A DNA stretch of 64,000 nt, taken from assembly GCF_009914755.1 (NCBI RefSeq), contig NC_060943.1; one strand, given 5' to 3'. The stretch's first letter is position 1. The number at the start of each line of letters is the position of its first letter. Made by a program: the position numbers and the translations under genes. Shown here piece after piece: positions 1 through 19,260 of this stretch. Origin of the DNA: the human T2T-CHM13v2.0 reference genome, Homo sapiens. The notes beneath the pieces were generated by a model. It had not been told where the DNA came from and made no database searches. It saw only the letters and a list, made by a program, of their open reading frames with translations.

Positions 1-559
<559 letters not shown>

Positions 560-1123
560 CTAGAGATAACAATAAACGATTATAGTTTAACTTAGGATGG
601 TAATATATCTCAACTACGACGAAGTCCAGCACATAGTAATCGCTATGTGTTTACTATGATGATTTTTATTATCTTCATCTAACAACAACAACAACAAAAA
701 GGCCAGAGGCATCTGTGCAAAGCTCGATAATGCTAATGGATTATGTTTATTAAGTATTCACTGTGTATTTGGTTTTGCGTTTTATTATACCTACGTTCTT
801 TCATTTGTTATCAAGGTCTCTATGAAGTCAGAGCTATTACTATCAGCATTTTACCCATGAAGAAACCGAGGTTTAGAGAGATTCTTTTCCAGGAACTGGA
901 TAGCCAGCAAGATGTGAAGCAGGGTAATCTGTCTCCTGAGTCTATGCTCTTCAGTGCCACCACTGTTTCCCAAAGTAGGATTTTAGAATTTTAGAGGATG
1001 CACAGAGCTCGCTCATTCATGTTCCATCACATAGTGAGAAAGTTTTGTTTTCTTTTGTTTTGTTTTTCAATCCTGATTGCACCAATGAGAAAGTCTCAGT
1101 TTGGTGCTAATACATCTTTAATT

Positions 1124-1253
1124 AAAAAAAAAAAAAAGTAGAGATGAGGTCTCACTATATTGCCCACTCCAGTCTCGAACTTCTGGCCTCAAGGAGTCCT
1201 GTCTCCCCCTCCCAAAGTACTGGGATTATAGGCATGAGCCAATGCACTTGGCC
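1124..1253 (-). mobile_element. FLAM/AluJ monomer
   Basis: Antisense Alu left-arm sequence (gagatgaggtctcact...cccaaagtactgggattataggcatgagcc) flanked by a ~29-bp direct repeat. Confidence 0.8.
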
Positions 1254-1509
1254 TCAGTTTGATCCTAATATATCTTTAATTCCTCTCTACACTTATCTCC
1301 CACTTTTAACAGAAAAGATCTTGAGTTAGAAGCTCTTAGCAGAGAACTGAGTCTAGAGTGATTTCATTATATGGTTCATAGTATTGATTTTCTATCCATA
1401 CTGGTTTTCTATTCTGTACTATACTGAGATAAAGTTTTTCATTTAGGTCAAAAATAATTTAAATATTAAGTAAATGTTAATATAAGCAGTGCACAGAATT
1501 GGCTCTGTG

Positions 1510-1690
1510 CTGTGCATGGGCTCTGTGATCTGGGCAAGTTCCCTCACCTCTCTGTGCCTCAGTTTCCTCACCTGCCAAATGGAGGCAGTAATGATGCCAT
1601 GTGTGTTGTAAAGTTACTGGGAGGAGTAAATGAACTAAAACGTGTAAAGCATCTACAAGCAGGCCCAGCACACAGGCAGCACCAAGTGAG
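1510..1690 (+). mobile_element. MIR SINE remnant
   Basis: MIR core ctgtgatctgggcaagtt...ctctctgtgcctcagtttcctcacctg. Similar remnants lie at ~810-960 (-), 2150-2360, 2770-2960, 5400-5570, 35440-35650 (-), 58850-59050 and 62050-62240. Confidence 0.7.
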
Positions 1691-2597
1691 GATTTGCTAG
1701 TGGTGTTTTTATCTGAGATGCCACCTCCTCTAAGAAGCCTTCCCTTGATCCTTGCTGACTCGTTGTTATTCCTCATGCCAGGTCCAAAGTGTACTGACAG
1801 GTTTCCCCTTTGACCTTCCTATGACTCCCCTTAGGGCCTAGGCTTTGACCAGCCTTATAGCCCAAGGGACTATATTGTACTCTCAAGATTGGAGGCTGCC
1901 TCCTCAGGGGCCACCCTAGCCAGGCTCATCACACAGCTGGCTCAGTGCTCTCCCTTGGCAACAACCTTAGGATAAAAGACATTTCCAGAGAAGTTGTCAC
2001 ACAGCATGCATGGTTTGAGTGCTTCACAAGAAATAATATCACAATTCCCTCTGAGTTGGTAAGGAAATGAAAAATGAATGAATGAATGAATGATCCTTCA
2101 CAAAACCTTCACAATGTCCCAGTTGGGTGAACAGAATAGGAATTATCTCCAGACCTCCTGGGTTCAATTTTAGTTTCACCACTCACTAGCTGTGCCCTAG
2201 GGCAAGTTATTTAATCTCTGTGTGTGCCTCCGTCTTTCTCTTGTAAAACAGAGATAATAACAGGATCTACCCTAGAGAGTTATTTTAAGGATGAGATGGA
2301 TTAATACATGTAAAATGCCTAGAACTGTGCCTGGCACACAGTATGTAAATATCTGCAATAATAATAACTTTCTATTTTCTAGATGAAGAAACTAAGACTC
2401 AGAGAAGACAAATGACATGCCCAAAGACACATTGATAAGAACGCATCTGGTAGTGGTGTTCGAGTCCAGCGTTGCAGCAGAGAGATGGGTAACTGTATGG
2501 CCGAACAGCTGTCCTCTCGTGGAAGAAGGAGGCCAATGTCCAGGAGTGGCAGGCATACTGGAACTTGGACTTCTGTAGGCCAACCTGGGTTCCACTT

Positions 2598-2712
2598 GGT
2601 AGATGGGGGTCTTGCTGTGTTGCCCAGGCTGGTCTCAAACTCCTGGCCTGAAGCAGTCCTCCTCCCTTAGCCTCCAGAGTAGCTGGGACTACAGGTACAC
2701 ACCACTGCAACC
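2598..2712 (-). mobile_element. Alu monomer fragment (FLAM/AluJ)
   Basis: gttgcccaggctggtctcaaactcctggcc...gtagctgggactacagg. Confidence 0.75.
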
Positions 2713-3269
2713 CCTCAGTGGTTGTTATTTAACTGAAGGGGGTTTTAGCTTTCATGTATCAGCTCACTCTGGAGCCAGACAGCCTGGCCTTCATGGCAGC
2801 TCTGCCCCTTACTACCTGTGTGACATCGGGCAACGTTACTGAGTGTCAGATTTCTTATTTGTAAAACAGGGATAAAAATGACATTGCTGTGCAAATTAAA
2901 AGAAAGAATCCATGTGAGATATTTAGCACACTGGCATACAATGAGAGCTTAATAAACATTGTTAGTTTTGTAAACTGAGGGAAAAAAATAGCCACAGGCC
3001 TGGGAACATAAATGCTTGGTAAGCTTCTCAGTTCCCTGGAAGTCTGACACGCAATGTGTATGTATGAACAAGGCAGGAGGAAGCATGACACCAAGCCTTC
3101 CTTTTAACAAACACTGTTTAAATCAGAGGTCGGAAGTCATGGACTGGAGATTCATTCTCTCCCCACTCATTTCTGCCCAGAGACACCTGGTGATCTGGCA
3201 TACACAGTGCTATGAACCTCAGAATTATTTGCTAGCATTTACAAATTGTGAGTACTCCCACATACAAAC

Positions 3270-4022
3270 TGTGGTAGATGGAATAATGCCTCCCCACAAA
3301 AATGTCCACAGCCTAATCCCTGGAACCTGGGAATATGTTACTTTACACAGCAAAGGAATGTTGCAGCTGTGATTGGAGATTGAGATAGGGAGAGTGTATT
3401 AGTCTGTTGTCATGCGGCTATGAAGAAATACCTGAGACTGGGTAATTTACAAAGAAAAGAGGTTTAATTCACTTACAGCTCAGCACGGCTGGTTGGGGGG
3501 GCGCCCTCAGGAAATTTACAATCATGGTAGGAGGCACCTCTTCACAGGGTGGCAGGAGAGAAAATAAGAGCAGAGCGAAGGGGGAACCCCTTATAAAACT
3601 GTCAGATCTCATGAGAACTCACTGTCATGAGAACAGCATGGGGGAAACCGCCCCCATGATCCATCACCTCCACCTGGTCCCCCCCTTGTTACAATTCAAG
3701 GGGATTGTAACAATTCAAGGTGAGATCTGGGTGGGGACACAGAGCCAAACCATATCAGAGAGTCTTCCTGCAGTGTCCGGGTGGGTGCGGCATGTTCATA
3801 GGGTCTTAGAAGAGGGAAGCAAGAGGTGAGAGGACAGAAATGCCACATTGCTGGCTTTGAGGGTGGGGCCAGAGGAGGGACCTGCAGGCAGAGATAGAGC
3901 TGGAAATGGAAAGGAAACCTTCTCCCTTAGAGTCTCCAGAAGAAGTGCAGCCCTACAGACCTGTGTTAGGCTTCAGACCTCCAGAATTGTAAAATAATAA
4001 AATTGCATTATTTTAAGCCACT
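3270..4022 (+). mobile_element. MLT1-type (MLT1D-like) MaLR solo LTR interrupted by a THE1 LTR
   Basis: MLT1 start tgtggtag...cctaatccctggaacctgggaatatgttac; the 3' part (agagtctccagaa...ttttaagccact) resumes after 3762. Confidence 0.7.
3395..3757 (-). mobile_element. THE1 (MaLR) solo LTR
   Basis: tgtattagtc...gagactgggtaattt...gggtggggacacagagccaaaccatatca with TG...CA ends and a perfect 5-bp TSD gagag (3390..3394 / 3758..3762). Confidence 0.9.
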
Positions 4023-4218
4023 CGAGGCCCATGTCCTCAACAAAGAGAAAGACGGTGGGGTGCTGTCAGCCAGGGTAGGTACCTGCTTGGTGGTCTGGGT
4101 CCTTTCCCACTGTGTCCATTCAGTTACATTACCTGCCCATCTGCTGAGGCCTCGAGTTTGGGACCTCAGGTTTATATAATTCCTTGCACAAGCATGATCG
4201 ATTGATTCCGGAGAGTAG

Positions 4219-4615
<397 letters not shown>

Positions 4616-7201
4616 TGATGTGTTCATCTGGGCAATGTGTGTTGAGGGGGCATAGGGAGGGGAGCTCTAAGGCAAATGTGCTGGGATTCTGCATTCGTCA
4701 TCCTCAAAACAAAATTGGTCCCTAGGTAGTTCTGCCTGTGATCCTGCATAATGTGCAAAGCCAGTAAGATGCCTTTGCCTCATCCCCAGGGAACATGCCT
4801 CCCAGCCACTTTCATCTCACCTAGTGCCTACACAGAAAGGCAACCGCCTCCCTGCTGAAGGGACCCCACGCCTGTCTCCTGTTTCCACACAATTACCCCG
4901 GGAAATGCCTGGCTTCCCATTTCCAGCTGCAGCCATCTTGACAGTTTCAGCCTCTCCCCACAGCCCACGTCCCTCACTTGAGCAGCGAGATGTGAAGACA
5001 GACAGCCGCTTGAGAACTGCACAGACTGTCCTTAATCTAAGCCATTTAAAAGGCATTTGTGTTCCATAAAACCCGTTTCTGTAATTCTGTGCCCCTACTT
5101 CTTTGAAAGATGATAACCCTAGGGAGGAGAAGAAATTAGCCAGGGAGGAGAAGTTCAGATGTGCTAATATTTTAATCGCTCATTCTTTCATCACATTAGT
5201 CACATTCATTAAATATGATTAATTTCAGGCTTTGTTGAAAACCCTATCAGTTTCCCTATCAGCCACACATCCATCTCTTGCCAAGCAGGCTGGTGCAGTA
5301 GCACCAAAAGTCCCCCAGTGTTTTTTACACCTGGATTGTATTATGTGCCCCCTGAAAATGTGTGGAATTAATTGAGCTCATTTGTTTCAAATACTTTGCA
5401 AGAGCCTGGGCTCTTGAGTCAGGCGGCCTAAGTGTGATCCTAAGTCCTCCCATTGCTGGAGTCACCTGGGCAAGTGACTGACGCCCTCTGAGCCCTGGTG
5501 TCCTCGTCTGAGGATGGAGATAAGAATACCTAACTCGAAAGTTGGTTGTGAAGATGAAAGAAGGCTTTCAAATTGCTAAGTTAGTTGGTTATGATTGTAA
5601 TTAAGGGCCCTTGGAGATGGATCATTCATCCATTCATTCATCCATTCAGAAGATTTGTGTACAGTGACTACTGTATGCAACCCTGTGTGTCCACTGCTGA
5701 TGAGAGAGACAGCAGCAAACACAGCAGTCAAATGCGTGTGGCCCCCAGGACCTTATATTTTAGTGGTGGAAGCTAGACAACCACCAAACATGTAATATAC
5801 CAGATGGTGGTACGTTCTATGGAGGAAAGAAAGGACGAGGGGCAGGGAGTCCTGGGCTGGTGGGACAGGGTGCTATGGCTCAGAGGGAACTCAGAGATCA
5901 CCTAATTCAGGCCCTGACCTGGAGGGCTCATGCTTTGCACACTGTGCTAAGAATTTGGACTTTCTTTCTCCAAGAATAAGGACAATGAGAGCCAGCAAGC
6001 AGGGAAGTGGAGCAAGGATGGTGCCGTCCGGCTGCTCAGCTGCTGGCTGGAACTCCCGGAGGACTCTGTGAGGATGCAGGTAGAAGGTGTGTAAGCATGT
6101 GACTGCATGGAAGCCCTCGGCATGTGATCCACTCCGTGTTCCAAATTGCCATCCTTTCTGCGTGCTGTTAGGGACTTCCCCCAGCTCTCCCTGCAGAGTG
6201 AGGAGTACTCTGAGACAGACGGGTCTAGGATGAACTGTGTTGATGGAGAAATGAACATTTTTTGGAGGGAAGGAAGATTTCGGGGTGTGGGGCATAAGTT
6301 GAAGGAGTATGGCTCTGAAAGTCCTTGGGCAGTTTGTAGAGGACAGAGAAGGTGGTAATGTCAGTTTCTGCCCCTCTCCCACCTCCACCTCTGGCCTTCT
6401 CAGTGGTCCTATGGCTCCCTACCTTCAGTCATCTTGTTCTCAAGCCTGAAGTGCTGGATCCACTCAGCTGCAACCCAGCTCAACACCTCTGTGGAAGCTT
6501 TGCCCATCAATCAGGAGAAGCTGAGATCCAGAGACTGATGCCCACGTTCTGTCTTTGCAGAGGGAAGCCCACCAGAGCCCTCTTCTCTCTGGGGAGGAGC
6601 TGGCTCCCTGAATCTCCAAGACAAACCCAGACAGCCCTGGGGACCTTGAATGTGAGCAAGGGGAGCAGAAAGGAGGCTCCAGCCCACCCAGGGCCCCTGC
6701 AGGGTCTGCACACACAATTACAGGTCCTCATTTCCCTCTCCTAATGATGCCCCAAAACATTAAGGGAAGTTAAATCAAACCACCAGGTGTCCAGCATGAA
6801 CAGCTGAAATAATAAATTCACGAGGTAAGTAAGACATTTTATTTGTACTATTTCAAAATTGGTAGATGCAGGAAAGCAAATTGTGATGTGCTTGGGATTT
6901 AATTTGTATTTCAAGGTACTAATGAAGGTAGCACCCATTTTCCCAAAGGCCTTTTCATCCCTGAATCTTGAGAGCACTTTTCTAAGCATATTGGGAATAA
7001 ATTAAGTTGCAAAACCTCCATGAAAAAGATTACGGTTAAAACATAATTTTGAGGAACCACTTGAGTTTATCCATTTACCTGCTTTTAAGTACACACACCT
7101 ATTTTTTTTGCAATTATTTTTCACAAAAGAAGGAACTTTGTGTGACGTATACAAGCAGGTAATGGCAAACCTCCAGCATCTTTAAAATAAAACTCAAATT
7201 G

Positions 7202-7505
<304 letters not shown>

Positions 7506-8109
7506 AAAACTCAGGCTGAACTAAACCAGCCTTCTGAGTCAATGTGCAGATATTCCATAATGAAGTATGCTGATTAATAAATTATTTGATTACCAGGTAA
7601 GTATACCTGCAATCAATATAACTGCCGAAAAGCTCTGAATTAGAAATGGTGCAATAAAATTTAACTGAAAGGTATTAGGAATTGGTAGTTTTAATTACAG
7701 GGAATGATTAATTGATCATTTAGACAGTATTGATCTACAACTTATTTAATTCTTTGCAATTTAATTTGTCAGATTTGAATCCAAATAACTGATGATTTGT
7801 TCCATGAATGCCAGAGCTGGAAGGGATGGGGTTGGCAGAAGAGACAAGACTGGACCATGGACCTGGTGGTTCTGTGCAGAGGCCAAAGCTACTCTCCTTC
7901 CCACCTGGCCCTGTGCTGGGCCTAACCTGGAGCCCCCTCTATCCTCTGCCTCATTCTTCTCCGGGTCAAGGTCCAGCATGAACTCCATGTCCTCCAGGAA
8001 GCCCTGGTGGACTTGGGCAGACCTGGGGACACGTCCAGCCTCCTGGCAAGATGGGGGTAACAGGAGTGTGTATAAAGGGGAAGGCAAGAATGTGCCCTTG
8101 GTGGAGCAG

Positions 8110-8625
8110 TGAAAAGAAGCCCTCATGTGACAAGTGTTTTGCTCCTAACCCACCTCCTCTGGTGACATCTTCTGGGTTAACTGCTCTTGCTGATCTCTGC
8201 ACATAAACCAAGCTAACTGTGAGAGGCCTTTCATTTCTAGTTTAAAGCAAGGAGACCACAGTTCCTTCTGAACACTCACCCCCAAGGAGATAAGGAGGGC
8301 GTCCCATGAGCAACACTGTGTGTTAAAGATGTACACGAGCACTGGGACCTGACCAAGGACAAACACGTCTCCAGCCCCCTCAGACCCTTGCTGCTGCTCA
8401 GATGTCCGCTGTCATCGGTCACATCCTAACCTCAACCCCCTCTCTCCTCCCACATAAAAGGAGGCTGAAATTCATAGTAACTTCAGATGGTTCTTTAGGA
8501 CACTGGCCCACCACCTTCTCGGTTGCTGGCTCTCCAAAACAAAGCCCCCTCCCTTGACCCAATTCCTTGTTTCTTGACGTACTGGCTGTTGTGCAGTGCA
8601 TGGTACCGGCTTGAACTCGGTTATG
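8110..8625 (+). mobile_element. ERV1 (MER4-group, LTR8/MER41-like) solo LTR
   Basis: 3' end ...caccttctcggttgctggctctcc...actggctgttgtgcagtg...cttgaactcggtta resembles MER4-group U5, with a TATA-like cataaaag near 8453. The 5' boundary is approximate. Confidence 0.55.
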
Positions 8626-10167
8626 TTGGCATGGCCTCTGGCGGTGCTCAGTTTGTGTGGATGAGTATTTTACAGCTACTGTCCTATTTCCAGTCCCCTT
8701 CCTCTGGACGGCTATGGGATGTGCTGTGGATGCCCTCTCTTAGGCTGGAATAAACCACCCTACCTTCTCCTCTGCCTTGTCTCCACCAAATAAACTCCTT
8801 AAGGCAGGGATAGAGTCTTGCACTCCACGAAGAAGTATTGCTGCATCCTCAGCTGTGTAAGAGTGACCGGGCTTCTTCTATTCCACCTGTAATGGAACTT
8901 TAGGCACGCAGAGAGAGATGGCAAATTTGTGCTGGCTGAAGGGGTCAGCAAATGCATATAAGGCTTCTTGTGCTCCAGAGAGAGAATGGAGTGCAGTCAG
9001 TGAGACCCTGAGGGGAGAAGGAACCAAAAGCCTGGGCAGAAGGGATCGTGGAGGTGCCCAGGGTCAGGAGGGATGGGAAGGGTGAGGAACACAAGAGATC
9101 ACCTGGAGGCATTAGAGGAGAAGGCAGGCACTGGGGACGGTGCCGCTGATCCAGGTGGAGCAACATCCTAGGACCCGAGTGCTGGGCAGGTGCATCCGTG
9201 GAGGGAAGCTTCTCTCCTCTCTCGGCTCCTGCTGAGAGAGGCAATCATTCCCCTGGCTTGCCCTGCAAGAGACAGGAGCTCTAGGTAGATCTCTGCTATC
9301 TAGGGAATAGAATGTGAATATTTGAAAGTTCTAGAGGTCAAGTCTTAGGTTCCCTCTCAGCTCAGATCCCAAATGGTACACTCTACCCTAACCCCCTTTT
9401 CTTGTAGCTTTGCTACATGGAGAGGAAAATACCTTGCCAGACACCAACAGTCCCTTCTCAGCACTTTTGTGTGAAGACAACTCAGACCCTAAGAGAATGG
9501 GGTCTAATTTGCAGGTGCCACTGGAAGGCAGAGGTCACGGGAGCCCTGGACTTCAGACAAGGTAGAGGGATCCTGGAGACAGCACATCTGGCCCTGGAGC
9601 CCTGCCCACCCGGGGAGTGAGGGCAGCTCTCCTGCTCTCCTAGGAGGCCTGCCCGAGGACCCCCATGTCCTCTATGTGTGGGATTCTGCAGTTTGCACTC
9701 ACAACCCAGAGCCTTTTACCCAACTACCCTGTTTGTAGGAATGTGTCCAAAATAAGCATCAGACAAGTACATGAAGATGAATGTGCAAAGACGTTCATAA
9801 CAGGATTGTTTATAATCATGAAAAATGATCTGCAGATTTCCTGTCTGCTGTGCAGGATGAGTTAGACGGGGATGCATCCATAAAATCACTTTGCCCTCAT
9901 TTAAAATTATATCATAGATCTATGTTTAATGACATAGTAAACGGTACTCAATGCATTAAGTGAAAAAAGCATATACATATCAGGATGTATATGATCAAGT
10001 TTTTGTTAAATGGATGCATGTATGCATGTCAGTAACTGTCTGTGTTTGCAAACAAAACGTCTAGCAAGACGTGCATCAAATATTAACAATCATTATCTTT
10101 GGATTCTGGATTTATTGACTTCTATTTTTGACTTTGCCCTTTGTTTTTCTATGTTATCTGACACTTT

Positions 10168-10310
10168 TACACTGAGTTTATATTATTTTTACAATTAAAA
10201 TATCAATCCATCAATCTACCTCCATTTGGGAAGTAGTAAAAAGTACACTGAGTTTATATTATTATTTTTACAATTAAAATATCAATCCATCAATCTACCT
10301 CCATTTGGGA
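10168..10310. repeat. Local 64/67-bp tandem duplication with a 12-nt spacer
   Basis: tacactgagtttatatt...ccatttggga at 10168..10231 and 10244..10310; identical except for one extra ATT. Confidence 0.95.
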
Positions 10311-10727
10311 GGTCCATTTCAACTACACAAGGAAGACAGGATAGGGAGGAATAGCACTAAGTATGAGTGCCTGTGATTCAGAGAGGGAAGCGACTTGGAA
10401 TTCTAGCCCAGCTCCTCCACCTGCCCCCTCTCTAACTCTTCCACTCTCCCATACTTGCTCCCGGTGCCCCAGCACTCCTGGGTGCCTCCTGTCTTCCCAG
10501 CACGCACAACCCAGCTGAGCTTTCTATTAGTACCCACTTTACCCCTGATCTTCCCGCCCTCCACACCTCTTGTCACTCCCAGTCACTCCACTGATTTTTA
10601 TTTTTTTATTTATTGATGTCATCACCATCTGAATCAACGATGTCTGTTTCTTTGCCTGCTCACTTACAGTTGGCCTTGTTTACTACTGTGGGAAGCTAAT
10701 GGTGTCTACTGTAGCCAAATCAGCACA

Positions 10728-11223
<496 letters not shown>

Positions 11224-11344
11224 TAATCAGCACCTTTAAAGAACCTAAAGATGGACTCCTGCCCATCCCACCCCATGAAATCTACATCTGAATATTAGAG
11301 AAACTCCAAGGGAGTTCTCAGTTTTCCCATATCTTCTCTGCTCA

Positions 11345-11845
<501 letters not shown>

Positions 11846-12990
11846 TCAATGAGAAGAAACCCCTATCCCCAGCAGTTGGTGAGTTGAGAATCATGCCAAG
11901 GAGGACACTCGGAACAGCCAGGTCAGAAAGCAGCAGCCCCTGGTGATGGCCTGGCCCGCCCAGACAGTGAATGCCGTTTTCTAAACCTGGTGAGATGATA
12001 AAATTTTAACCTGCTATGTAAAGCTATTTTTAAACATGGAGGGGAAAAAAATAACCTTTCCCTGGGTAAAACCGTAACAGTCACTTAGAGCACAATGGAT
12101 CTTTATTTTTTATGACCAAGTTATAAATTGTTGAAAATAAGAGTTTCAAATGGAAATGTTGACATAATAATCTTATCTATAGCAGCATGAATAACCAACT
12201 ATAACCGTTATTATTCTGTGTTCTATGAACGTTGGCTTTTTTGAAAGTTCAACTTGCTCAATATGTTTGCCTTTTAACATGAGTTAAGAGGTAATTTGCA
12301 TGAACACAAATAAAGAAGTATCAATTCAGTGGCATTATGAATTAATTAGCTGCAGCCCACCATCATGAATTGGGAAATGCAACCGCACTTTCCATCTCTT
12401 TTATTTATAGCCCACTCTTGCTACGTTACACCTTTTCAGATATTAAGTACTGAACATGGTTGCTTCTTAAAAAGGTTAATTATCCAAGACAGGTTTATGG
12501 TACCTTATCTAAAGGCCAATATTCTACTTCTTTGGGATCTTGGATTTACATAATTACAATCAGTGGAAAGTTTATCAGTCAGATTTCCTTTCCCACCACT
12601 CCTCAGCAGGCACCTTTGTCCTCTTGAGATCTACCAGTACTGGGGGTCTCCACCAGCTGGTCTTTGTTTCTTACTCCGGCAAAGCAACATTGACAGCTTG
12701 CAACAGCCAACTTTCCTTGCCTTAAATGTGAGGCACATGGAATGACCACATGAGCAAGGCAGGCTGAATCCAGCCCAAAGCCTGCAGCACCTGGAGCAGA
12801 GCTCACCAGTGGAGGCTGTGCGCAAAATCAGGCCCAGAGCCATGGTTTCTTTGGCCTGTAAAGTGTTAAAAAATGAGATTGGTGGGGGAGGAGCCAAGAT
12901 GGACGAATAGGAACAGCTCCGGTCTACAGCTCCCAGCGTGAGCGACGCAGAAGACGGGTGATTTCTGCATTTCCATCTGAGGTACCAGGT

Positions 12991-13335
12991 TCATCTCACT
13001 AGGGAGTGCCAGACAGTGGGTGCAGGTTGGTGGGTGCACGCACCGTGCGCGAGCCGAAGCAGGGCAAGGCATTGCCTCACTCGGGAAGCGCAGGGGGTCA
13101 GGGAGTTCCCTTTCCTAGTCAAAGAAAGGAGTGACAGACGGCACCTGGAAGATCGGGTCACTCCCACCCGAATACTGCACTTTTCCAACGGGCTTAAAAA
13201 ACGGCGCATCAGGAGATTATATCCCGCACCTGGCTCAGAGGGTTCTACACCCACGGAGTCTCGCTGATTGCTAGCACAGCAGTCTGAGATCAAACTGCAA
13301 GGTGGCAGCGAGGCTGGGGGAGGGGTGCCCACCAT
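12991..13335 (-). CDS. L1 antisense ORF0 (114-codon open frame)
   Basis: ATG at 13335 in strong Kozak context (gcaATGG). Translation MVGTPPPASLPPCSLISDCCASNQRDSVGVEPSEPG... is recognisably primate L1 ORF0. Splice donors CAG|GTGCGG (after 13230) and CAG|GTGCCG (after 13145). Expression is unproven. Confidence 0.6.
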   Translation of the reverse strand: MVGTPPPASLPPCSLISDCCASNQRDSVGVEPSEPGAGYNLLMRRFLSPLEKCSIRVGVTRSSRCRLSLLSLTRKGNSLTPCASRVRQCLALLRLAHGACTHQPAPTVWHSLVR

Positions 13336-13785
13336 TGCCCAGGCTTGCTTAGGTAAACAAAGCAGCCAGGAAGCTCCAACTGGGTGGAGCCCACCACAGC
13401 TCAAGGAGGCCTGCCTGCCTCTGTAGGCTCCACCTCTGGGGGCAGGGCACAGACAAAAAGACAGCAGTAACTTCTGCAGATTTAACTGTCCCTGTATGAC
13501 AGCTTTGAAGAGAGCAGTGGTTCTCCCAGCATGCAGCTGGAGATCTGAGAACGGGCAGACTGCCTCCTCAAGTGGGTCCCTGACCCCTGACCCCCGAGCA
13601 GCCTAACTGGGAGGCACCCCCTAGCAGGGGCAGACTGACACCTCACACGGCCAGGTACCCCAACAGACCTGCAGCTGAGGGTCCTGTCTGTTAGAAGGAA
13701 AACTAACAAACAGAAAGGACATCCACACCAAATACCCATCTGTACATCACCATGATCAAAGACCAAAAGTAGATAAAACCACAAA

Positions 13786-14801
13786 ATGGGGAAAAAACAG
13801 AGCAGAAAAACTGGAAACTCTAAAAAGCAGAGCACCTCTCCTCCTCCAAAGGAACACAGTTCCTCACCAGAAACGGAACAAAGCTGAACAGAGAATGACT
13901 TTGACGAGCTGAGAGAAGAAGGCTTCAGACGATCAAATTACTCCGAGCTACAGGAGGACATTCAAACCAAAGGCAAAGAAGTTGAAAACTTTGAAAAAAA
14001 TTTAGAAGAATGTACAACTAGAATAACCAATACAGAGAAGTGCTTAAAGGAGCTGATGGAGCTGAAAACCAAGGCTCGAGAACTATGTGAAGAATGAAGA
14101 AGCCTCAGGAGCCGATGCGATCAACTGGAAGAAAGGGTATCAGCGATGGAAGATGAAATGAATGAAATGAAGTGAGAAGGGAAGTTCAGAGAAAAAAGAA
14201 TAAAAAGAAACGAGCAAAGCCTCCAAGAAATATGGGACTATGTGTAAAGACCAAATCTACGTCTGATTGGTGTACCTGAAAGTGATGGGGAGAATGGAAC
14301 CAAGTTGGAAAACACTCTGCAGGATATTATCCAGGAGAACTTCCCCAATCTAGCAAGGCAGGCCAACATTCAGATTCAGGAAATACAGAGAACGCCACAA
14401 AGATACTCCTAGAGAAGAGCAACTCCAAGACACATAATTGTCAGATTCACCAAGTTGAAATGAAGGAAAAAATGTTAAGGGCAGCCAGAGAGAAAGGTCG
14501 GGTTACCCTCAAAGGGAAGCCCATCAGACTAACAGCAGCTCTCTCGGCAGAAACTCTACAAGCCAGAAGAGAGTGGGGGCCAATATTCAACATTCTTGAA
14601 GAAAAGAATTTTCAACCCAGAATTTCATATCCAGCCAAACTAAGCTTCATAAGTGAAGGAGAAATAAAATACTTTACAGACAAGCAAATGCGGAGAGATT
14701 TTGTCACCACCAGGCCTGCCCTAAAAGAGCTCCTGAAGGAAGCGCTAAACATGGAAAGGAACAACCGGTACCAGCCACTGCAAAATCATGCCAAAATGTA
14801 A
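13786..14801 (+). pseudogene. L1 ORF1 (disrupted)
   Basis: In-frame stops at 13885, 14095, 14173, 14245 and 14410, plus a 1-nt deletion near 14452 (1016 nt versus 1017 nt intact). Confidence 0.95.
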
Positions 14802-14849
14802 AGACCATCGAGACTAGGAAGAAACTGTATCAACTAACGAGCAAAATAA

Positions 14850-18692
<3,843 letters not shown>

Positions 18693-18920
18693 ACAATGAG
18701 AACACATGGACACAGGAAGGGGAACATCACACTCTGGGGACTGCTGTCGCTTGAGGGGATGGGGGAGGGATAGCATTGGGAGTTATACCTAATGCTAGAT
18801 GACGAGTTAGTGGGTGCAGCGCACCAGTATGGCACATGTATACATATGTAACTAACCTGCACATTGTGCACATGTACCCTAAAACTTAAAGTATAAAAAT
18901 AAATAAATAAAATGGGATTG

Positions 18921-19260
<340 letters not shown>

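What the first reader, a model, noticed from the sequence alone, without database searches (positions are those of the whole stretch)
13230..13335. L1 ORF0 donor is in phase with UQCRFS1: possible ORF0-Rieske fusion that swaps the mitochondrial presequence
Seen: the L1 antisense promoter region and ORF0 point along the minus strand toward UQCRFS1, ~13 kb away on the same strand. ORF0 ATG (13335) to donor CAG|GTGCGG (13230) is 106 nt = 35 codons + 1. UQCRFS1 exon 1 is 214 nt = 71 codons + 1, and both end on G. Established: L1 antisense promoters drive chimeric transcripts, and ORF0 fuses to host exons via these donors. Inference: splicing to UQCRFS1 exon 2 (outside the window) would give ORF0(1-35)-UQCRFS1(72-end). 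This retains the transmembrane and Fe-S domains but lacks most of the targeting peptide. Read-through could alternatively interfere with the UQCRFS1 promoter when the L1 is demethylated. A phase match has a 1-in-3 chance of occurring at random, so this is a testable hypothesis only.
Basis: partly seen in the sequence, partly recalled or inferred. Interest (0 to 1): 0.7.

Follow-up and report, generated by a model that had tools for sequence, protein, structure and literature searches.

The report
L1 ORF0 donor upstream of UQCRFS1
An ordinary full-length L1 retrotransposon 13 kb upstream of the Rieske gene UQCRFS1 has an antisense ORF0 splice donor that would join UQCRFS1 exon 2 in frame, but nothing shows the splice occurs, and its product would lack a mitochondrial import signal.

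Summary
On the minus strand the ORF0 ATG is at 13335 and the donor is CAG|GTGCGG with last exon base 13230. That is 106 nt, phase 1. UQCRFS1 exon 1 coding sequence (220..7) is 214 nt, also phase 1. I fetched exon 2 from the same genome; its first base is at window -4728. The junction codon would be G|TC, Val72. The virtual ORF is 238 aa against 274 native.

The match is not special. ATG, 106-nt spacing and GT together are kept in 24 of 29 nearest other L1 copies, so this is generic L1PA architecture. A second family donor sits in phase 2.

No transcript evidence was found. UQCRFS1 is absent from the supplements of three published L1-chimeric-transcript catalogues and from every relevant full-text search.

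Obstacles:
- a 17,957-nt virtual intron
- 33 poly(A) hexamers on the way
- 19 acceptor-like sites scoring at least as well as exon 2
- a published main antisense start site downstream of the ORF0 ATG

ORF0(1-35) has net charge -3 and 7 prolines, so it is not presequence-like. A fusion would probably stay outside mitochondria.

Verdict: real geometry, ordinary element, unsupported fusion. Low interest.

The parts
12884..18912 (+). Full-length young primate L1 (L1PA-type), about 6.03 kb, flanked by a roughly 12-nt target-site duplication (AAAATGRGATTG)
   Evidence: 5' end and A-rich tail with flanks; ORF layout; Pfam endonuclease and RT domains; thousands of genomic relatives
12884..13785 (+). 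L1 5'UTR (902 nt), CpG-depleted (26 CpG in the 907 nt counted, 12884-13790; observed/expected 0.36). It holds the antisense promoter region.
   Evidence: nearest other copy 95% identical
12991..13335 (-). ORF0, 114 codons in this copy. Kozak context G at -3 and G at +4. No ATG in the 150 nt upstream.
   Evidence: no Pfam family
13230..13335 (-). ORF0 ATG to donor 1: 106 nt, 35 codons + 1 (phase 1). Corresponds to L1 positions 452 to 347.
   Evidence: same spacing with GT in 25 of 29 other copies
13224..13232 (-). Donor 1, CAG|GTGCGG. Best match to the 5' splice-site consensus in the antisense 5'UTR by a crude count (6.5 of 9).
   Evidence: identical 9-mer in 22 of 29 copies
13139..13147 (-). 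Donor 2, CAG|GTGCCG, last exon base 13145, 191 nt from the ATG (phase 2). Out of frame with UQCRFS1 exon 2.
13786..14801 (+). L1 ORF1, broken: in-frame stops at codons 34, 104, 130, 154 and 209, then a frameshift near codons 225-232
14865..18692 (+). L1 ORF2, open, 1275 aa, with endonuclease and reverse-transcriptase domains
254..13229 (-). Stretch an antisense transcript must cross before the UQCRFS1 promoter: 12,976 nt with 23 AATAAA and 10 ATTAAA. 19 of 959 AG sites score at least as well as the exon 2 acceptor on a crude heuristic.
11515..11837 (-). Alu lying antisense to a minus-strand transcript, about 1.4 kb past the donor, with poly-pyrimidine + AG acceptor-like sites (first exon bases 11797 and 11727)
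   Evidence: sites; masked block from the hub table; the reading as an antisense Alu rests on recalled Alu sequence
7..253 (-). UQCRFS1 exon 1. Coding part 220..7 is 214 nt (phase 1) and encodes residues 1-71 of the presequence. Exon 2 starts outside the window at -4728.
   Evidence: hub annotation

Best explanation
This is an ordinary, old but full-length L1PA retrotransposon with ORF1 broken and ORF2 open. Its 5'UTR carries the standard antisense ORF0 with its two standard splice donors. Donor 1 is in phase 1 in essentially every copy of the family. UQCRFS1 intron 1 also happens to be phase 1, so an in-frame join is possible on paper, and that match is coincidental.

The most likely biology is that the locus makes no ORF0-Rieske product of any consequence. 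When the antisense promoter fires, transcripts most likely end at one of many poly(A) signals, or splice to nearer cryptic acceptors, within the 13 kb before the gene.

If a junction to exon 2 ever forms, the encoded 238-aa protein would lack residues 1-71 of the presequence. It would carry an acidic, proline-rich N-terminus in its place. It should then fail presequence-dependent import and be a non-functional by-product.

Shown: coordinates, phase, domain content, generic family architecture, sequence obstacles, absence from three catalogues. Inferred: no or negligible splicing, no import.
For: - Phase and frame.
- Generic architecture: of 29 other copies, ATG kept in 28, 106-nt spacing with GT in 25, open to the donor in 22, second donor at 191 nt in 24.
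- Base rate: Criscione 2016 (PMC4908685, passage) cites about 3,200 ORF0 loci, of which 57 were seen fused to a gene exon, about 1.8%.
- Position: the same paper (section 6 read whole) says sense L1 antisense transcripts typically start downstream of the gene's TSS. This L1 is 12.6 kb upstream of it.
- Start site: section 7 (read whole) places the primary antisense start at about L1 nt 400. The ORF0 ATG here is at L1 nt 452, so such transcripts would lack the ORF0 AUG. There is no other ATG between 13283 and 13230 (sequence).
- Catalogues: UQCRFS1 has 0 occurrences in 10 supplement files of PMC4908685, 9 of PMC10879037 and 3 of PMC9396940.
- Full text: 0 papers for UQCRFS1 with 'antisense promoter' + LINE-1, with L1PA, with 'chimeric transcript' + retrotransposon, or with ORF0.
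- Obstacles: 33 poly(A) hexamers, 19 of 959 competing acceptor-like AGs, a virtual intron of 17,957 nt against a native one of 4,734 nt.
- Targeting: ORF0(1-35) has 1 K/R, 4 D/E, 7 Pro and a maximal helical hydrophobic moment of 0.20. UQCRFS1(1-35) has 3 K/R, 0 D/E and 0.50.
- Exon 1 is the Pfam 8-kDa N-terminal region. That region is the targeting peptide, kept after cleavage as complex III subunit 9 (passage in PMC4391031).
Against: - No RNA data (RNA-seq, CAGE, long reads) could be examined, so absence of the junction is not shown.
- The three catalogues are incomplete and are not aimed at L1-derepressed or 19q12-amplified tumours. They rest on ESTs, a cell-line panel, and brain and glioma samples.
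- The list of 57 ORF0 fusions in Denli 2015 is not held and was not seen.
- The sequence is permissive. Donor 1 is intact and is the best donor-like site in the antisense 5'UTR. ORF0 has a good Kozak context and no upstream ATG within 150 nt. The exon 2 acceptor has a good pyrimidine tract.
- Poly(A) hexamers and heuristic acceptor scores are weak predictors. Introns of 18 kb are common.
Confidence: 0.82

Rival explanations
1. A rare, noise-level chimeric mRNA does form. In cells with a demethylated L1 5'UTR (embryonic stem or carcinoma cells, testis, tumours) the antisense promoter fires upstream of 13335. Donor 1 pairs with the exon 2 acceptor and skips exon 1. This gives an in-frame ORF0(1-35)-Val72-Rieske mRNA. 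Its protein stays cytosolic and is degraded, though it might be visible as a junction peptide.
For: In-frame geometry. Intact ATG, Kozak context and donor. ORF0 fusions and L1 antisense chimeras are documented in general. No stop-codon problem arises, because the fusion ends at the native stop in the last exon.
Against: Not in three catalogues or any searched text. The base rate of observed ORF0 fusions is about 1.8% of loci. The L1 lies upstream of the gene rather than in an intron. There are 33 poly(A) hexamers and 19 competing acceptor-like sites on the way. The main antisense start is reported downstream of the ORF0 ATG.
Confidence: 0.1
2. The L1 antisense promoter acts as a distant upstream promoter. 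Its transcripts splice into a cryptic acceptor just upstream of or inside exon 1, or read through it. They keep the native ATG and the native exon 1 donor. The result is a long-5'UTR UQCRFS1 mRNA that encodes the normal protein, with ORF0 acting as an upstream ORF.
For: Acceptor-like sites lie close to the promoter on the minus strand, for example first exon bases 678 and 1115. L1 antisense promoters are described as alternative start sites for genes.
Against: The evidence gaps are the same as for the first rival. Three AATAAA hexamers lie at 786, 751 and 670, just upstream of the promoter. RefSeq lists a single transcript (hub table).
Confidence: 0.04
3. Transcriptional interference: read-through antisense transcription from the demethylated L1 runs over the UQCRFS1 CpG-island promoter and dampens it.
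For: The strands match and no annotated gene lies between (hub table). No tool result speaks for it.
Against: 12,976 nt with 33 poly(A) hexamers must be crossed. UQCRFS1 is a strongly expressed gene (TPM values above 100 in muscle and heart, table passage in PMC8788487).
Confidence: 0.03
4. A functional ORF0-Rieske protein: the chimera is made, reaches a defined compartment and does something, such as extramitochondrial Fe-S chemistry or a dominant-negative effect on complex III assembly.
For: Only the open frame and the retained UCR_TM and Rieske domains.
Against: ORF0(1-35) is acidic and proline-rich with a low amphipathic moment. The presequence it replaces is itself a complex III subunit. 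The architecture is generic and was not shaped at this locus.
Confidence: 0.01

Closest known systems
L1 ORF0 and ORF0-gene exon fusions (Denli et al. 2015, as described in PMC4859970 and PMC4908685; the original paper is not held)
   Same: Antisense ORF in the 5'UTR of a primate L1, with a strong Kozak context and two internal splice donors. Donor 1 lies after codon 35, and a downstream host exon is in the same phase.
   Different: Published fusions rest on observed transcripts. Here none was found. ORF0 in this copy is 114 codons, against about 70 described and 102 in 16 of the 29 nearest copies. That difference lies after the donor and does not matter for a fusion.
L1 antisense-promoter chimeric transcripts (Criscione 2016, PMC4908685; Pinson 2022, PMC9396940; Lanciano 2024, PMC10879037)
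   Same: A young L1PA 5'UTR oriented so that its antisense strand runs in the sense direction of the neighbouring gene.
   Different: Catalogued cases typically start from intronic L1s downstream of the gene's TSS. This L1 is intergenic, 12.6 kb upstream. UQCRFS1 is in none of the three supplements.
L1 copies with an intact ORF2 and a broken ORF1 (a category I recall from L1Base; not checked in any call)
   Same: Full-length element, ORF2 of 1275 aa open with endonuclease and RT domains, ORF1 disabled.
   Different: No difference apparent. I could not check whether this locus is listed there.

Membership tests
Full-length primate LINE-1 (L1PA) | About 6-kb element with a roughly 900-nt 5'UTR, ORF1, ORF2 with endonuclease and reverse transcriptase, an A-rich tail and a target-site duplication | tested here: met
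   Element 12884-18912; 5'UTR 902 nt; ORF1 remnant; ORF2 1275 aa with Pfam Exo_endo_phos and RVT_1; tail and roughly 12-nt duplication. The subfamily (L1PA2 or L1PA3) was not assigned because no repeat library was available.
Full-length primate LINE-1 (L1PA) | Many close relatives in the same genome | tested here: met
   Between 4,025 and 5,966 first-look candidates per segment. Best other copy 95% (5'UTR), 98% (ORF1), 97% (ORF2 5' part), 99% (ORF2 3' part). Only 40 candidates were scored per search.
L1 ORF0 locus | Antisense ATG with Kozak context in the 5'UTR, open frame, two splice donors | tested here: met
   same layout in most of 29 other copies
ORF0-host gene fusion / L1 antisense chimeric transcript | Host exon downstream on the same strand with a phase-compatible acceptor | tested here: met
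   Exon 2 first base at window -4728; G|TC gives Val72; 238-aa open frame
ORF0-host gene fusion / L1 antisense chimeric transcript | An observed spliced transcript joining the L1 donor to the host exon | tested here: inconclusive
   No RNA data available. UQCRFS1 is absent from the supplements of three catalogues and from text searches. Denli 2015 is not held.
ORF0-host gene fusion / L1 antisense chimeric transcript | Antisense promoter active at this locus, with a start site upstream of the ORF0 ATG | not testable with these tools
   Needs CAGE, nascent-RNA or methylation data. The published main start at about L1 nt 400 would lie downstream of the ATG at L1 nt 452.
Mitochondrial matrix-targeting presequence (for ORF0 residues 1-35) | Net positive charge, few or no acidic residues, capacity for an amphipathic helix (criteria recalled from general knowledge) | tested here: not met
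   Net charge -3 (1 K/R, 4 D/E), 7 Pro in 35 residues, maximal hydrophobic moment 0.20. UQCRFS1(1-35) has +3, 0 acidic residues and 0.50. No dedicated predictor was available.

The most novel reading that the evidence does not exclude
In cells where this L1 5'UTR loses methylation, its antisense promoter could act as a far-upstream UQCRFS1 promoter. Candidates are pluripotent or germ cells, or tumours, especially those that amplify the chromosome 19q12 region holding UQCRFS1 (that association is recalled, not checked). Donor 1 would splice over exon 1 to exon 2. The product would be a presequence-less ORF0-Rieske chimera that stays outside mitochondria. Its junction peptide would then be a retrotransposon-derived, tumour-restricted antigen candidate. 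It would also be a natural test of what a Rieske protein does without its presequence, which is also complex III subunit 9.
Probability: 0.05. Interest if true: 0.4.

Novelty: already known. Interest (0 to 1): 0.12.

Why it matters
If the fusion were real, it would be a primate-specific retrotransposon rewriting the N-terminus of an essential respiratory-chain subunit. It would also be a possible source of a tumour-specific junction peptide.

As it stands, the value of the check is negative. The phase match follows from a spacing shared by most L1PA copies and a one-in-three coincidence. The replacement N-terminus is not an import signal, and no published catalogue lists the transcript. The same test would flag every phase-1 gene downstream of any of the thousands of ORF0-bearing L1s, so it should not be given weight without RNA evidence.

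Tried and rejected
- Denli 2015 by DOI: not held. The primary list of 57 ORF0 fusions was not seen.
They may bear on whether this L1 is expressed.
- Earlier-findings look-up: not open.
- A literature search with min_terms 2 was badly specified. It returned 22,201 papers without requiring UQCRFS1 and is uninformative.
- UQCRFS1 + LINE-1 gave 5 papers, none about a chimera by title or abstract. The one I opened lists UQCRFS1 only as a ZNF331-affected protein.
- UQCRFS1 + 'antisense promoter' gave 1 paper, in which the phrase concerns PPARGC1A.
- Splice-site strength: no MaxEnt tables or training set were available. I used a count of matches to the 5' splice-site consensus and a home-made pyrimidine-tract score. 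These are crude and not calibrated.
- Subfamily assignment: not possible without a repeat library. I built no consensus of the L1 copies.
- A mosaic origin for the L1 (old 5' part, young 3' part) was considered because of the identity gradient of 95, 98, 97 and 99%. It was not pursued. The gradient is also expected from CpG decay in the 5'UTR and from the far larger number of 3' copies.

Full report
**What is there.** The window is human chr19 (T2T) upstream of UQCRFS1.

- A full-length L1 lies on the + strand from 12884 to about 18912. It starts with the usual L1 5' end and ends in an A-rich tail. It is flanked by a target-site duplication of about 12 nt.
- Its 5'UTR is 902 nt (12884-13785). 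It is CpG-depleted: 26 CpG in the 907 nt counted, observed/expected 0.36.
- ORF1 (ATG 13786) has in-frame stops at codons 34, 104, 130, 154 and 209, then a frameshift near codons 225-232.
- ORF2 (14865-18692) is open for 1275 aa and has endonuclease and reverse-transcriptase domains.
- The nearest other genomic copies are 95% identical in the 5'UTR, 98% in ORF1, 97% in the 5' part of ORF2 and 99% in the 3' part. Only 40 of 4,025-5,966 candidates were scored per search.
- It is a young primate L1PA copy, not a recent insertion. I could not name the subfamily.

**The observation.** On the minus strand the ORF0 ATG is at 13335. It has G at -3 and G at +4, and there is no ATG in the 150 nt upstream.

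- The frame is open for 114 codons.
- CAG|GTGCGG ends the would-be first exon at 13230. That is 106 nt from the ATG, phase 1.
- UQCRFS1 exon 1 coding sequence (220..7) is 214 nt, also phase 1. Both end in G.

Exon 2 lies outside the window, so I searched the window's own genome with Pfam UCR_TM. That search found it.

- The acceptor has a good pyrimidine tract, and the first exon base is at window -4728.
The frame then runs to the native stop.
- The virtual ORF is 238 aa against 274 native. The virtual intron is 17,957 nt against 4,734 nt native.

**Is it more than chance?** No. I took the 29 best-matching other copies of the 494-nt ORF0 and antisense-promoter region from this genome and mapped the ATG and donors in each.

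| Feature | Copies (of 29) |
|---|---|
| ATG kept | 28 |
| 106-nt spacing with GT | 25 |
| Open from ATG to donor | 22 |
| Identical donor 9-mer | 22 |
| Second donor at 191 nt (phase 2) | 24 |

The phase-1 donor is therefore a property of the L1 family and was not shaped at this locus. The only locus-specific coincidence is that UQCRFS1 intron 1 is phase 1. That is roughly a one-in-three event, and less surprising still once the phase-2 donor is allowed for.

**What the fusion would be.**

- Exon 1 encodes only the Pfam 'Ubiq-Cytc-red_N' 8-kDa N-terminal region. Exon 2 encodes UCR_TM and the Rieske 2Fe-2S domain.
- That N-terminal region is the targeting peptide. In mammals it is kept after cleavage as complex III subunit 9 (passage in PMC4391031).
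- ORF0(1-35) has 1 basic residue, 4 acidic residues and 7 prolines. Its maximal helical hydrophobic moment is 0.20. The first 35 residues of UQCRFS1 have 3 basic residues, no acidic residues and 0.50.
- By the usual criteria for presequences (recalled), ORF0 is not an import signal.
- The product would be a Rieske protein without targeting, not one with a swapped presequence. I infer that it would stay cytosolic, get no cluster and be degraded. This was not tested.

**Would the splice happen?** I had no RNA data. Indirect evidence points against it.

1. Base rate: about 3,200 ORF0 loci, of which 57 were seen fused to a gene exon (PMC4908685 citing Denli 2015).
2. Sense L1 antisense transcripts typically start downstream of the gene's TSS, from intronic L1s (PMC4908685 section 6). 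This L1 is 12.6 kb upstream.
3. The primary antisense start is placed at about L1 nt 400 (section 7). The ATG here is at L1 nt 452. Many antisense transcripts would therefore carry the donor but not the ORF0 AUG.
4. On the 12,976 nt between the donor and the UQCRFS1 TSS, the minus strand has 23 AATAAA and 10 ATTAAA. Two lie within 1.2 kb of the donor, and there are runs in Alu tails.
5. On a crude pyrimidine-tract score, 19 of 959 AG sites score at least as well as the true exon 2 acceptor. They include sites in an Alu that lies antisense to the transcript at 11515-11837.
6. UQCRFS1 has 0 occurrences in the held supplements of three catalogues of L1 chimeric transcripts:
   - 10 files of PMC4908685
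   - 9 files of PMC10879037
   - 3 files of PMC9396940
7. No paper in the library combines UQCRFS1 with 'antisense promoter' + LINE-1, with L1PA, with 'chimeric transcript' + retrotransposon, or with ORF0.
8. The few papers that hold UQCRFS1 with LINE-1 or with 'antisense promoter' are unrelated.
9. RefSeq, as given by the hub, lists one UQCRFS1 transcript.

**Evidence against my reading.**

- The sequence is permissive. The donor is intact and is the best donor-like site in the antisense 5'UTR. The ATG context is good and the acceptor is good.
- Hexamer counts and heuristic scores predict little.
- The catalogues are incomplete, and none targets 19q12-amplified tumours.
- The primary ORF0 fusion list and the supplements of one pluripotent-cell study could not be seen.
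- A rare junction in L1-derepressed cells remains possible. I put it near 10%, and a functional protein near 1%.

**Comparison with what is known.** The element is a standard member of the L1PA family and a standard ORF0 locus. Every sequence feature tested is met. It would work like the published ORF0-exon fusions if it were spliced. The defining feature of that class, an observed transcript, is untested here and absent from the sources I could read.

**Verdict.** The geometry is real, the element is ordinary, and the fusion is a paper possibility with a low prior and a probably inert product. Interest is low. The decisive test is a junction-read search between chr19:31,757,230 and chr19:31,739,272 (T2T).

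Noticed in passing
window 13786-18692 (+): The disabling lesions of this L1 are very unevenly placed. ORF1 has 5 nonsense codons and a frameshift within its first roughly 230 codons, while the 1275-codon ORF2 has none. If 6 lesions fell at random over 338 + 1275 codons, all landing in ORF1 would have a probability of about 1 in 10,000. This is a post-hoc calculation of my own. Chance, a mosaic or gene-converted element, or something preserving ORF2 are all open.
   Followed up: partly
L002 (G000:C22:40345021-40348218): A second Rieske copy on chromosome 22 matches UCR_TM as well as the real gene does (107.7 bits). It has an uninterrupted frame of 283 aa from its first Met, so it is an intron-less retrocopy that is still open. 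I recall a 'Rieske-like protein 1' pseudogene entry of this size; that was not checked.
   Followed up: partly
L003 (G000:C7:140012783-140015980): A third UCR_TM match on chromosome 7 (81.1 bits) with an open frame of 170 aa. Probably another retrocopy.
   Followed up: no
window 12807-12855 (-): Just outside the L1 5' end, the minus strand has an exon-like 49-nt piece. It has an acceptor-like site (first base 12855, heuristic score above that of the UQCRFS1 exon 2 acceptor), an ATG in good context and a strong donor (CTG|GTGAGC). It would be the first competitor for any antisense transcript that is not spliced at 13230. This is a pattern only.
   Followed up: no
window 18913-19215 (+): A 5'-truncated Alu abuts the L1's 3' target-site duplication. 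That is why the masked block runs to 19229 and makes the L1 look about 300 bp too long.
   Followed up: partly
L011-L039, ORF0 region: Among the 29 nearest copies, ORF0 is 102 codons in 16. It is 114 codons here and about 70 as described for the human-specific family. ORF0 length therefore varies between L1PA lineages through changes downstream of donor 2.
   Followed up: no
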